The position numbers are program-made. Positions 3,001 to 6,000 of a stretch of DNA of 18,159 nt are shown here, piece after piece (positions within the stretch are counted from its first letter, which is position 1; each line of letters begins with the position of its first letter). The DNA is from a virus, in the UHGV virus genome UHGV-0178165. One strand, given 5' to 3'.

Positions 3001-6000
3001 CCAGCCTCACAAAGAGCCTCAATATGGTTAATCACGGAGCGTTTGCTAATCTCGCACTGGTCAGCGATATGCTGATATGAAGGCCAGCATTCGCCATTGT
3101 CATTGGCGTTATCGGCAAGTTTAAGCAGAACCAGTTTTCTGAGCGGGTTTCCAACTTTGGCTCCCATTGCCTTCACCATCAGAATCATACTCATTTTTTC
3201 ACCTCCAATTGGTTGTGTTTGTTAATGCTTATTTAAGCATCAGGCGAGCAAACTTCGGCTGGTTACTTCCTGGCTCCAAATTCAAAACCCCAGTCTTTTC
3301 CAGTGCTAAAATGTGACCAATTACTGTCGATCTGCTAATATCGCACTGATAAGCGAGATCTTGATATGAAAACCAGCATTCGCCATTGTCATTGGCGTTA
3401 TCGGCAAGTTTAAGCAGAATCAGTTTTCTTCGCGGGTTCCCAACCTTAGTTCTCATTGCTTTCTCAATCAGAATCATACTCATTGTGTCTTCTCCTGTAA
3501 TTTGTGCTTTCTATTCATGACAGCCAATCATCTTTGCCAGACCGCGCTGGGTAAGCGTTGACAGGTTGATGAGTAAATCAGTTTCTGCGCGATCAATTTC
3601 TCGCTGTGTTGGCTTGCTGTAACTTGCTTGTGTCATTTGTTAATTCACCAATAGTGAATAGTTAGTTGAAAGGTATGCGTGGAAACGCATATAGCCTTAG
3701 TTGGTCAGATATCTTGGAACTCGCTTTTCAGCGACGTAGGACGAATGTCCGTTGTTACAAAGAGCAGTCCCGCTTATTAAGCGGCTTTGTGTTCCGGCGG
3801 GAACACGTCATCAAGACTTACATTTGCGCCTAACTTGTTCAGGTAAGCAACGAGAGCACGGCATGTTTTAAGATCTGGCATGCGACGACCACTTTCCCAA
3901 TGACCGACAGCCGACTGTGTGCATCCAACTGCCTTAGCAAGTATTGTTTGACTGATGCTCACTGACTTTCGATATTTCTTAAGGTTGTTCATATTTCCTT
4001 CCCAACATTGGTAACCACGCTATTATAGTACATCTAGTGCGTTTTTAATGCAAGCAAAAATACCACACTCCAAATCCTGGTGAACCAACCCCAAACCTCC
4101 TGAATCGCATTCTGACGCAATATTTACGCCCACACGTACATTTTAATGTCTGACAGTTGTTTATCTCTCTACAGCGCTTCCTATGGCGTTTAAACGCCAT
4201 TGACGTAACTAATGGTTGCCGAGACCGGCTTTCCGCATGCCTGCACACCAGAATATTTCCTCGAATGCCTTGTCGGTTTCTTCGTGACGGTCAGGAGTTT
4301 TTTCACACTCTGTTCGGACATGTTCGAACATAATGTTTTTAGGTTCATTGACTGGTTCAAAAGAGTGACTGGTTCTGGGTGCAGCTCCTGCACCACCCCC
4401 TAGTGAATCTCCTGCACCACCCTAGTGAATCTCCTGCACCACCCTGGTGAATCTCCTGCACCACCCTGGTGAATCTCCTGCACCACGGGCCAGCTTCTTG
4501 ACGGGCTACAGGGTTTAGGGATTTCACCACTTTTGGTGAAAACTTGGCGCCAACTTTCTTTCCCAAAATATAAATCAATAAAATACATAGAGTTATAAAA
4601 AACTAACCACATTTAGAGTGTTTGTGTTGACTTAATCAACTACGTCCCGTACTATTTAGTCATCAGCAGGAAGCTGGAAGCCAAACGGAACAGACTGGCA
4701 GGCTCTTTAAACAACGTCGAACACTCGACTACGTGGCTGAAAAGCCAGATCACCCAACCACATAAGCTGTGGGATGCAATGCCGAAGCAACCGTCTCAGG
4801 AGGGGCTTCGAGATTGCATCGCCAAAGTTTATTCGGGAGGAATCTATGTCCAGAAAAACAGAATTTAAAGGAACCGCAGCTTCTCGCCGTAGAGCTCGTC
4901 GTGCAAATCTGCAAAGTCAGGAGGCGATCAGCTCCGACAAGCTACACAGGCCAACCCCTTCACGAGTGGTCTTGCAATGCAAGCGCAAACCAGCAATGAG
5001 AGCAGAAGTGATAACTCTGACAACGTTGACCAGAAAATATGAAGGTTCAACTTGTCTTCCAAACGTAGCTCTTTACGCGGCAGGCTACCGGAAATCAAAA
5101 CAACTGACAGCGAGGTAAGTGATGAATCAGACATACATTCCATCATGCTTGAGAAATCTGCCAAAGCAGAAAGCAAAGCCCCGCAAGCAAGCCATAAAGG
5201 ACGCTAAGGCAGAGGTTATTGATCAAGCAATACAATTGCTCAGGGAGGAGTTAAGAAGTGGCAAGCTCGAAGGAATGATGATGCCCTATCAGCGCGGATA
5301 TCTTTCGGCGATTAGTAAGTTGGAAGTATTGAAGAGTGAATTATGAACTATCTGGAATTTCCGGATGGTTCATTGTTTTGGCAGCAAACCACTTGTTTGA
5401 GGACTGATACATGAGAGTAAAAACTATGGGCGTAAGCCCATTAAGTGGTCGTATTTTTCAAGGAACATTAAACACTGAAAAAGGAATGTGGGTAGGAAAG
5501 AAAGAAGATGTAACCGAACAGGCAGTTAAGGCAGTAGCTGAACACATGATGATAAAAGGCCAGAAATATGCATACGGGACGAAGGATGGCAAATGGCTGA
5601 TAATAAGCCATCAAGTGGTTGATAAATTACCAGAAGATTTTATTGCTGATTAAAATTATTTTGGCATAAATAACAGAATAAACACAGCACTGTGTATTCA
5701 TTCCAACGAGTGAATACACGGAGCAATGTCGCTCGTAACTAAACAGGAGCCGACTTGTTCTGATTGTTGGAAATCTTCTTTGCCCTCCAGTGTGAGGGCA
5801 ATTTTAGCACACCATGCAATATGCCATTGCAGGGTGGCCTGTTGCTGGCTGCCCTTCCGAATCTTTACTTGAACGAATCACCCGTAAATTACGTGACGGA
5901 TGGAAAAGAGTTGAGGTCTTATTATGCGCAATGAAATAGCCATCAATCACCAGATGCTTCGTGCTGCACAGAACAAAGCAGTAATAGCCAGATTTATTGG

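What the first reader, a model, noticed from the sequence alone, without database searches (positions are those of the whole stretch)
5654..5923. 270-bp noncoding gap inside the early operon with a 9-bp inverted repeat and a terminator-like hairpin
Within otherwise tightly coupled genes there is an untranslated interval containing an inverted repeat GTGTATTCA-N10-TGAATACAC (5692-5719) and a GC hairpin with T-run (5782-5805). It could encode a small RNA, a protein-binding site or an N-dependent terminator that partitions operon expression.
Basis: seen in the sequence. Interest (0 to 1): 0.35.

Follow-up and report, generated by a model that had tools for sequence, protein, structure and literature searches.

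The report
Known phage sRNA PreS plus cIII
The "noncoding gap" is the already described lambda-type small RNA PreS with its tL2a terminator, followed by the missed 41-codon cIII gene, so it is ordinary except for a one-off 455-bp deletion that clips the sRNA's U-tail and removes cIII's ribosome-binding site.

Summary
The interval is not a 270-bp noncoding gap, though. 5814-5939 is the lambdoid cIII gene (Pfam PF02061), and its mRNA element RF01804 lies at 5804-5859. Only 5654-5813 is untranslated.

That stretch is the conserved lambdoid "boundary sequence 4". 5721-5805 matches the lambda Hfq-dependent sRNA PreS/LPR1 at 83 of 85 bases. In lambda, PreS pairs upstream of host dnaN, raises beta-clamp synthesis and helps phage replication. 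The window copy keeps that predicted pairing.

Related phages carry four unrelated stem sequences in the same register, so the structure rather than the sequence is conserved. Its role is inferred to be precursor processing or insulation.

One feature is specific to this window. A 455-bp deletion relative to its closest relative joins the terminator directly to cIII. It leaves a 4-U tail and no Shine-Dalgarno for cIII, and the junction was found in no collection searched.

Verdict: already known, low interest.

The parts
4627..4655 (+). pL-like promoter (TTGACT, 17-nt spacer, TACTAT) that would drive the operon
   Evidence: Read by eye from the sequence. Not tested with the scan tool. The position matches pL in HK75.
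4702..4747 (+). nutL-like site: boxA-like GCTCTTTAAACAA, then two small hairpins (GTCGA-ACAC-TCGAC at 4716-4729 and TGGC-TGAAAA-GCCA at 4734-4747)
   Evidence: Identified by eye; which hairpin is boxB was not determined.
4774..5118 (+). N antitermination protein gene
   Evidence: Pfam PF25694 N_peptide, E 2.4e-32.
5411..5653 (+). Upstream gene of the DUF7446 family (occupies the place of ral in lambda)
   Evidence: Pfam PF24233, E 3.4e-28. The same gene precedes the element in an E. coli prophage, locus L132.
5690..5721 (+).
   Evidence: Fold -23 kcal/mol, z -6.2. Of its 14 pairs, 8 change on both sides, 98.2% of cells are paired, and no shuffle reaches the observed score. Four unrelated stems occur in register. 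The + strand is more stable than the - strand in all 6 variants tested.
5721..5805 (+). Homolog of the lambda sRNA PreS (LPR1), 85 nt
   Evidence: 83 of 85 bases match lambda lpr1 as delimited by the authors' cloning and deletion primers. The lambda ral-ea10 intergenic region is about 98% identical.
5721..5734 (+). PreS stem-loop 1 (GAGC-AAUGUC-GCUC)
   Evidence: RNAalifold consensus. The pairs are invariant, so they neither support nor contradict the structure.
5742..5759 (+). PreS stem-loop 2 (AACAGG-AGCCGA-CUUGUU)
   Evidence: RNAalifold consensus. One pair changes A-U to G-C in 14 sequences and another changes G-U to A-U in 13.
5755..5779 (+). PreS seed. It includes the authors' 17-nt seed deletion (5757-5773), M1 (CTG, 5760-5762, dnaN pairing) and M2 (GAA, 5770-5772, alaS pairing). 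There is an A-to-G difference from lambda at 5766.
   Evidence: Primers in Table S5. Predicted duplex with the E. coli dnaN leader (-46 to -16): lambda -25.0 kcal/mol, window -24.7, M1 -14.0. The change at 5766 turns an A-U pair into G-U.
5780..5805 (+). tL2a-type intrinsic terminator and PreS 3' end: 8-bp stem, 6-nt loop, then only UUUU
   Evidence: Homologous hairpins are annotated 'tL2A' in Sf6 and 'terminator' in HK75, HK97 and mEp234. The preprint equates the LPR1 3' end with tL2a. The U-tail is the weakest of 128 loci.
5805..5806 (.). Junction of a 455-bp deletion relative to the DUF7446-PreS-ea10-cIII-kil arrangement
   Evidence: BLAST against locus L132 breaks at 5804/5805 and skips 455 bp, with no microhomology. 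The alignment with HK75, mEp506 and lambda shows loss of the second terminator and of the AAGGAG Shine-Dalgarno. The junction is absent from every collection scanned.
5804..5859 (+). cIII mRNA alternative-structure element (Rfam RF01804, Lambda_thermo), missing its 5' Shine-Dalgarno bases
   Evidence: 65.7 bits against a gathering score of 50. Model positions 4-6 are deleted and the outer pairs are flagged non-canonical.
5814..5939 (+). cIII gene, 41 codons plus stop, HK022/HK75-type allele
   Evidence: Translation. Pfam PF02061, E 5.7e-21. One difference from HK75 cIII in the aligned gene, a synonymous GGA/GGG change. An in-frame TAG at 5805-5807 rules out an upstream start.
5924..6076 (+). 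kil gene, overlapping the end of cIII
   Evidence: Pfam PF06301, E 1.7e-20.

Best explanation
The interval is a standard piece of a lambdoid early-left (pL) operon.

Transcription from pL passes N and two small genes. It then enters a conserved 150-nt untranslated module, the 'boundary sequence 4' of the lambdoid literature. That module holds a structure-conserved hairpin (5690-5721) followed directly by the Hfq-dependent small RNA PreS/LPR1 (5721-5805). The 3' stem-loop and U-run of PreS are the intrinsic terminator tL2a.

Polymerase that is not N-modified stops at tL2a. N-modified polymerase reads through into cIII (5814-5939), kil and the recombination genes.

By homology with lambda, PreS uses its single-stranded seed (about 5755-5779) to pair 16-46 nt upstream of the host dnaN start codon. 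This opens the dnaN ribosome-binding site, raises beta-clamp levels and so boosts phage DNA replication. It also represses alaS.

What is shown here: sequence identity, structure, covariation and retained seed-target complementarity. What is shown only in lambda, by others: expression, Hfq binding and dnaN activation. What is inferred: hairpin A marks or insulates the site where the PreS 5' end is cut out of the pL transcript.

In this window a unique 455-bp deletion has removed ea10, the next terminator and the cIII Shine-Dalgarno, and has shortened the PreS U-tail to four. I infer that termination at tL2a, Hfq loading of PreS and cIII translation are all weakened.
For: - Identity: lambda, HK75, HK97, mEp506 and Sf6 match 5656-5805 at 95-99%.
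- Delimitation: the lpr1 cloning primer starts at GAGCAATGTCGCTCG, which is window 5721. The deletion primers end after GAGGGCGATTTTTT. 83 of 85 bases are identical.
- Function in lambda: the preprint states that LPR1 lies between ral and ea10, is enriched on Hfq, gives bands of about 88 and 68 nt, ends at tL2a, and activates dnaN through base pairing verified by compensatory mutation.
- Annotation: GenBank annotators mark the hairpin as tL2A or terminator, and the region as boundary sequence 4.
- Seed pairing with the E. coli dnaN leader: window -24.7 kcal/mol (z -5.0), lambda -25.0 (z -5.3), loss-of-function M1 mutant -14.0 (z -1.4).
- Diverged P22-like homologs (about 80% identity) keep and extend complementarity to the same target, -28 kcal/mol, z -5.3.
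- Structure: covariation supports hairpin A and PreS stem-loop 2.
- Flanking genes: cIII, kil and N are confirmed by Pfam, and the cIII mRNA element by Rfam.
Against: - No expression data exist for this phage. All functional statements are transferred from lambda.
- The U-tail has 4 U, whereas all 127 other loci have 6-8. By established knowledge of Hfq-binding sRNAs (Otaka et al. 2011, recalled, not checked here), this may impair both termination and Hfq binding, so this particular copy may be only partly functional.
- The host of this phage is unknown, so the dnaN target was tested only against E. coli K-12.
- How the PreS 5' end is made is not stated in the preprint text I read. The role proposed for hairpin A is therefore conjecture.
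Confidence: 0.88

Rival explanations
1. The inverted repeat at 5692-5719 is a DNA palindrome bound by a dimeric regulatory protein, an operator-like site inside the operon.
For: It is a perfect 9-bp inverted repeat with a 10-bp spacer, a geometry compatible with a helix-turn-helix dimer.
Against: - Relatives carry four unrelated stem sequences at the same position and in the same register, between conserved flanks.
- 8 of 14 pairs change on both sides, and 98% of cells remain paired.
- Several pairs are G-U, which pair only in + strand RNA, and the + strand fold is more stable than the - strand fold in all six variants.
- Hairpin type does not track the antitermination system. The same stem occurs in lambda (N), HK97, Sf6 and the Nun/put phage HK75.
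Confidence: 0.04
2. The conserved 150 bp is only a recombination 'boundary sequence'. On this view it is homology retained because it mediates module exchange among lambdoid phages, and it has no function beyond the terminator.
For: - It is annotated as boundary sequence 4 in Sf6 and mEp234.
- Different genes flank it in different phages: ral, DUF7446 or Nun upstream, and ea10, Sf6 gene 33 or cIII downstream.
- Left breakpoints of homology vary.
- The boundary-sequence idea is established in the literature.
Against: - Lambda genetics in the preprint show a phenotype for deletion of the seed alone: 2-fold fewer spontaneous plaques, Hfq-dependent, and lower phage DNA after induction.
- Diverged type II copies keep complementarity to the same dnaN leader despite about 20% sequence change and a roughly 13-nt insertion.
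- The two views are not exclusive. A functional sRNA can also serve as recombination homology.
Confidence: 0.06
3. The interval encodes a small protein from the ATG at 5726 (48 codons, 5726-5872) or the TTG at 5764.
For: ORFs of 48 and 56 codons are listed, and a GGAG lies just upstream of ATG 5726.
Against: - The ATG is ATA in the type II homologs (and L093).
- The GGAG ends only 2 nt before the ATG.
- The frame runs through the terminator hairpin, and its end changes with whatever lies downstream. By my reading of the lambda sequence it would be about 29 codons there.
- The ORF overlaps cIII out of frame.
Confidence: 0.02

Closest known systems
Phage lambda PreS (LPR1) Hfq-dependent sRNA (Silverman et al., bioRxiv 10.1101/2024.10.31.621285)
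   Same: 83 of 85 bases identical. Same operon position, downstream of N-side accessory genes and upstream of cIII/kil. Same terminator hairpin, same seed and the same predicted dnaN-leader duplex.
   Different: A-to-G at 5766 in the seed (A-U becomes G-U), G-to-A at 5800 in the stem base (U-G becomes U-A), and a U-tail of 4 instead of 6. ea10 is absent, so cIII starts 9 nt after the tail. Expression has not been tested.
Lambda tL2a, first member of the tL2 terminator cluster of the pL operon
   Same: Homologous hairpin at the homologous place. Lambda 33952-33925 by my mapping. Named tL2a in the preprint and in the Sf6 record.
   Different: The T-run is truncated by the deletion, giving the lowest tail score of 128 loci. 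The next terminator-like hairpin (AACGC...GCGTTTTT), which precedes cIII in lambda, HK75 and mEp506, is missing.
Lambda cIII gene and its mRNA alternative-structure/thermoregulator element (Pfam PF02061; Rfam RF01804)
   Same: The 41-aa HK022/HK75-type CIII has an intact core, and the RNA element scores 65.7 bits.
   Different: The AAGGAG Shine-Dalgarno and the about 55-nt leader are deleted. Model positions 4-6 are absent.
Lambdoid 'boundary sequence 4' (bsq4), as annotated in Sf6 and mEp234
   Same: Same sequence, at a mosaic joint between early-left modules.
   Different: Here its right edge is cut 2-4 T short and fused to cIII. That joint is not seen in any other record.
Other phage-encoded Hfq sRNAs that act on host mRNAs (VpdS of vibriophage VP882; StxS of Stx phages)
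   Same: Same kind of logic: a phage sRNA with a terminator tail that acts through Hfq on host transcripts.
   Different: No sequence relationship, and different targets and genomic positions.

Membership tests
PreS/LPR1 sRNA of lambdoid phages | Sequence at least 92% identical to lambda LPR1 with few gaps (the authors' conservation criterion) | tested here: met
   83 of 85 aligned bases identical (97.6%). The differences are at 5766 and 5800, and 2 tail U's are missing.
PreS/LPR1 sRNA of lambdoid phages | Location in the pL (early-left) operon, sense strand, downstream of N and upstream of ea10/cIII | tested here: met
   N at 4774-5118, PreS at 5721-5805, cIII at 5814-5939, kil at 5924-6076, all on the + strand.
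PreS/LPR1 sRNA of lambdoid phages | GC-rich 3' hairpin followed by a poly-U tail (Hfq-type terminator, tL2a) | tested here: inconclusive
   The hairpin is intact (-13.2 kcal/mol). The tail is AAUUUUAG, with 4 U in the first 8 nt against 6-8 in the 127 other loci. The consensus terminator scan does not call it.
PreS/LPR1 sRNA of lambdoid phages | Seed complementary to the dnaN leader, including the CUG mutated in M1 | tested here: met
   Duplex -24.7 kcal/mol (z -5.0) against lambda -25.0. M1 gives -14.0 (z -1.4). The target tested was E. coli K-12 only.
PreS/LPR1 sRNA of lambdoid phages | Discrete transcripts of about 88 and 68 nt, bound by Hfq, made in the lytic cycle | not testable with these tools
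   Shown only for lambda.
Lambda CIII protein (Pfam PF02061) | Match to the family profile above the curated cut-off | tested here: met
   74.7 bits against a cut-off of 25.7, E 5.7e-21.
Lambda cIII mRNA element (Rfam RF01804) | Covariance-model score above gathering, and the Shine-Dalgarno-containing 5' strand of the outer helix | tested here: inconclusive
   65.7 bits against 50. However, model positions 4-6 (GGA of the Shine-Dalgarno) are deleted and the outer pairs are non-canonical.
nut-type antitermination site (boxA + boxB), considered for CGCTCGTAA at 5730-5738 | boxA consensus followed within about 10 nt by a boxB hairpin with a GNRA-like loop | tested here: not met
   One-mismatch boxA matches are no more frequent than chance (10 found, 7.4 expected). 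No hairpin follows at boxB spacing. The motif lies in the 3' strand of SL1 and the spacer that follows.
RNase III processing hairpin, considered for hairpin A | Cleavage dependent on rnc within a duplex of about 20 bp | not testable with these tools
   Only the structure is known: a 14-bp stem plus 5 flanking pairs with internal loops. Other variants have stems of roughly 8-12 pairs.

The most novel reading that the evidence does not exclude
Its stem is exchangeable (four unrelated sequences between invariant flanks), and its base pairs with the first nucleotides of PreS. It could hold the sRNA's 5' end in a precursor helix until an endonuclease releases it.

Together with this, the diverged P22-like 'type II' copies may form a second PreS subfamily. 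Their about 13-nt insertion extends pairing with the dnaN leader, which would make dnaN capture an ancient and conserved strategy of lambdoid and P22-like phages.
Probability: 0.3. Interest if true: 0.4.

Novelty: already known. Interest (0 to 1): 0.22.

Why it matters
The finding re-discovers from raw sequence an element that was recognised as a functional sRNA only in 2024.

For annotation, lambdoid and P22-like genomes should carry PreS/tL2a and the easily missed cIII ORF at this position.

Three small additions could guide experiments on how PreS is made and how essential its U-tail is:
- structure-only conservation of the upstream hairpin;
- a diverged Salmonella-phage subfamily that keeps dnaN complementarity;
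- a natural allele with a clipped U-tail and a cIII lacking its Shine-Dalgarno.

None of these changes the current picture.

Tried and rejected
- **Rfam beyond gathering.** Only RF01804 is real. The mir-137 (22 bits) and rliE (20 bits) matches to hairpin A are far below threshold and merely reflect a hairpin. PreS is not in Rfam 15.
- **Own promoter for PreS.** None was found. The only promoter-like site (5627-5656) is no better than shuffles give, and the -10 region would fall inside the variable hairpin.
- **Small ORF at 5726.** Rejected, because the ATG is not conserved.
- **boxA/nut reading of CGCTCGTAA.** Rejected as chance.
- **My first model of a long 'hairpin B' (5721-5760).** Type II sequences break it: 14-17 of 90 sequences are unpaired at three positions and there is no double change. 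The RNAalifold model of SL1 plus SL2 has a compensatory pair and replaces it.
- **Searches for the junction GGGCAATTTT|AGCACACCATG.** It was not found in any of these: phages and complete E. coli genomes (all hits split in two pieces), IMG/VR exact and gapped patterns, GTDB representative genomes, and JGI metagenomes.
- **Whole-sRNA duplex energies against dnaN.** Not discriminating; shuffles reach -38 kcal/mol. I therefore restricted the test to the seed.
- **Literature searches for tL2a by name.** These gave only noise. The identification came from the ea10/ral search.
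Full report
**1. What is in the sequence**

- GTGTATTCA (5692-5700) and TGAATACAC (5711-5719) are separated by 10 nt.
- TTGCCCTC-N6-GAGGGCAA lies at 5780-5801 and is followed by TTTT.

Folded as RNA, the first becomes a 14-bp stem (5690-5703 with 5708-5721) with a CAAC loop. Its energy is -23 kcal/mol, z = -6.2. The second folds at -13.2 kcal/mol, z = -3.6. The whole 5654-5813 stretch has z = -5.1, and no shuffle of 200 folds as well in any of the three tests.

The claim of a 270-bp untranslated gap fails, however.
- ATG 5814 opens a 41-codon ORF, MQYAIAGWPVAGCPSESLLERITRKLRDGWKRVEVLLCAMK.
- This ORF is CIII (Pfam PF02061, E 5.7e-21).
- It overlaps kil (5924-6076, PF06301) as it does in lambda, HK75 and HK97.
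- Rfam finds the cIII mRNA element RF01804 at 5804-5859, at 65.7 bits against a gathering score of 50.

**2. Context**

The + strand from about 4.6 kb is a lambdoid pL operon:
- a pL-like promoter at 4627-4655 and a nutL-like boxA with hairpins at 4702-4747, both seen by eye;
- N at 4774-5118 (PF25694);
- an unassigned ORF, then a DUF7446 gene at 5411-5653;
- the interval in question, then cIII and kil;
- ORF6N and Rha genes, a Rad52-like recombinase and SSB.

The window as a whole is a mosaic P22/Sf6-like lambdoid phage.

**3. Identity of the untranslated 160 bp**

5656-5805 is 95-99% identical to a segment found in 372 phage records and about 2,300 complete E. coli genomes.
- In lambda it is the ral-ea10 intergenic region.
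- GenBank annotators call the hairpin 'tL2A' and the region 'bsq4, boundary sequence' in Sf6.
- It is 'boundary sequence 4' in mEp234.
- It is 'terminator' in HK75, HK97 and mEp234.

A literature search for ea10 and ral found the preprint of Silverman et al. (10.1101/2024.10.31.621285). It reports the following.
- This region of lambda encodes LPR1, renamed PreS. It is an Hfq-enriched sRNA of about 88 nt, with a stronger 68-nt processed form.
- Its GC-rich stem and poly-U end are tL2a.
- It is made in the lytic cycle from 10 min after induction.
- It pairs upstream of the dnaN start codon and activates a dnaAN-gfp fusion more than 4-fold, and the pairing was verified with compensatory mutants.
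- It raises DnaN but not DnaA or RecF, opens the dnaN RBS in structure probing, and represses alaS.
- Its seed deletion lowers phage DNA after induction and spontaneous phage release.

The authors' primers (Table S5) fix the ends and the functional positions:

| Feature | Sequence | Window coordinates |
|---|---|---|
| PreS +1 | GAGCAATGTCGCTCG | starts at 5721 |
| End of full deletion | after GAGGGCGATTTTTT | through the terminator T-run (5802-5805) |
| Seed deletion | TGTTCTGATTATTGGAA | 5757-5773 |
| M1 (dnaN pairing) | CTG | 5760-5762 |
| M2 (alaS pairing) | GAA | 5770-5772 |

The window copy matches lambda at 83 of 85 positions. The differences are G for A at 5766 and A for G at 5800.

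**4. Does this copy still fit the mechanism?**

I took the E. coli K-12 dnaA-dnaN junction and computed seed-target duplexes.

| Seed | Energy (kcal/mol) | z against shuffles |
|---|---|---|
| Lambda | -25.0 | -5.3 |
| Window | -24.7 | -5.0 |
| Lambda M1 (loss of function) | -14.0 | -1.4 |

The lambda and window seeds pair with -46 to -16 relative to the dnaN AUG. The substitution at 5766 converts one A-U pair into G-U. The seed is therefore intact.

**5. Comparative structure**

A pattern scan of IMG/VR for the core GAGCAATNTCGCTCGTAAC returned 120 loci. With the GenBank loci this gave 90 distinct sequences, which I aligned as A4.

*Hairpin A.*
- It sits directly 5' of PreS +1 in every sequence.
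- It occurs with four unrelated stems, all in one register between conserved flanks: GTGTATTCATTC/GAGTGAATACAC, ATAGCAGA/TCTGCTAT, AATGACCA/TGGTCATT and AATGCGGA/TCCGCATT.
- Of its 14 pairs, 8 change on both sides, and 98.2% of cells stay paired.
- No shuffle of 500 reaches the observed score, and slid controls pair only 34-49%.
- These stems represent few independent replacement events, so the counts overstate the number of events.
- G-U pairs, and a consistently more stable + strand fold, place the structure in the sense transcript.

*PreS body.* My first long-hairpin model is broken by the diverged sequences. RNAalifold instead gives:
- SL1 (5721-5734);
- SL2 (5742-5747 with 5754-5759), with one A-U to G-C compensatory pair in 14 sequences;
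- an unpaired seed;
- the terminator.

This agrees with the preprint's statement that the seed is mainly unpaired.

*Type II copies.*
- A diverged 'type II' form occurs in P22-like Salmonella phages such as SE1.
- It is about 80% identical, below the authors' 92% cut-off.
- It has a different terminator stem (GCCGCUC/GGGCGGC) and an insertion of about 13 nt.
- Its seed still pairs with the same dnaN leader, extended to -53, at -28.0 kcal/mol, z -5.3.
- This was tested only against the E. coli target.

**6. What is peculiar to this window**

All other copies are followed by one of three things:
- the ea10 start;
- the start of an Sf6 gene-33-like gene;
- the cIII leader of about 60 nt, which carries a second terminator-like hairpin and the AAGGAG Shine-Dalgarno.

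Here GAGGGCAATTTT runs straight into AGCACACCATG.

The closest relative is an E. coli prophage with the same gene order, DUF7446-PreS-ea10-cIII-kil (locus L132). Against it the window lacks 455 bp, with no microhomology at the ends.

The consequences I can read from the sequence are these.
- The PreS/tL2a T-run is 4 long. This is the only one of 128 loci with fewer than 6 T in the first 8 nt, and it has the lowest tail score.
- cIII has no Shine-Dalgarno.
- The terminator stem ends 12 nt before the cIII AUG.
- An in-frame TAG at 5805-5807, together with stops further upstream, excludes an alternative start or translational coupling.
- The Rfam alignment lacks model positions 4-6.

The junction was not found in the phage collection, 5,426 complete E. 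coli genomes, IMG/VR, GTDB representatives or JGI metagenomes. I infer weakened termination and Hfq loading, and a poorly translated cIII. An assembly artefact cannot be excluded.

**7. Mechanism, with status of each step**

| Status | Step |
|---|---|
| Shown here | Homology, structures, covariation of hairpin A and SL2, seed-target complementarity, loss of the U-tail and Shine-Dalgarno |
| Shown by others in lambda | PreS expression, Hfq dependence, dnaN activation by RBS opening, replication benefit, tL2a as a pL terminator |
| Inferred | The PreS 5' end is cut from the pL transcript next to hairpin A, since no promoter was found and the -10 position would lie in the variable stem |
| Inferred | Hairpin A insulates or presents that site. 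Its base pairs with GAGC, the same bases that form SL1 after release |
| Inferred | N-modified polymerase reads through into cIII and kil |

**8. Rivals**
- A protein-binding palindrome is disfavoured by the structure-only conservation.
- A pure recombination boundary sequence is compatible with the mosaic flanks. It does not explain the lambda phenotypes or the retained target complementarity in the diverged copies.
- The small ORF at 5726 is not conserved.
- The boxA-like motif is at chance level.

**9. Verdict**

The finding is real but already explained. It is the PreS sRNA with terminator tL2a, plus the missed cIII gene. The novelty class is 'already known'.

The modest new points are:
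- the exchangeable upstream hairpin;
- the P22-type PreS subfamily;
- this window's singleton deletion allele.

Noticed in passing
window 4385-4486: A 22-bp tandem repeat of 4.5 copies (CTCCTGCACCACCCTAGTGAAT, 96% matches) lies about 140 bp upstream of the pL-like promoter. 4225-4443, which overlaps the first 59 bp of the repeat array, is 93.6% identical to an internal part of the O replication gene of Stx2a phage F403. The repeat is therefore probably an ori iteron array sitting out of place.
   Followed up: partly
window 3200-4630: The immunity and lysogeny region looks rearranged or decayed.
- No cI-like ORF lies between the cro-like gene (3777-3992, - strand, HTH_3) and pL, and tblastn with the F403 cI finds nothing.
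- cII is truncated to 41 codons (3511-3636, matching only positions 1-37 of the 91-position Phage_CII profile).
- The 5' end of the O gene appears twice (3281-3495 and 3044-3197).
Together with the cIII that lacks a Shine-Dalgarno, this suggests a phage or prophage that has lost its lysogeny-establishment functions.
   Followed up: partly
L008 (Salmonella phage SE1) 653-803, and IMG/VR loci L015, L018, L027, L028, L042, L050, L058, L066, L069, L084, L112, L114, L124, L128: A diverged PreS-like element (about 80% identity) occurs in P22-like phages, upstream of c3. It has its own terminator stem and an insertion of about 13 nt that extends the predicted pairing with the dnaN leader. It falls below the 92% identity threshold used in the PreS preprint.
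   Followed up: partly
window 5343-5373: A 14-pair terminator-like hairpin followed by TGTTTTGG lies between the unassigned ORF 5119-5346 and the DUF7446 gene. It may be another pL-operon terminator.
   Followed up: no
L004 (lambda) locus 1366-1398, i.e. lambda about 34065-34097: A hairpin with a T-run (GCTGCC-TGATAGT-GGC, then CTTTATTTTT) overlaps the ral stop codon. mEp234 annotators mark the homologous site as a rho-independent terminator. It is absent from the window, where homology starts at TTTTGGCATAAATAAC.
   Followed up: no
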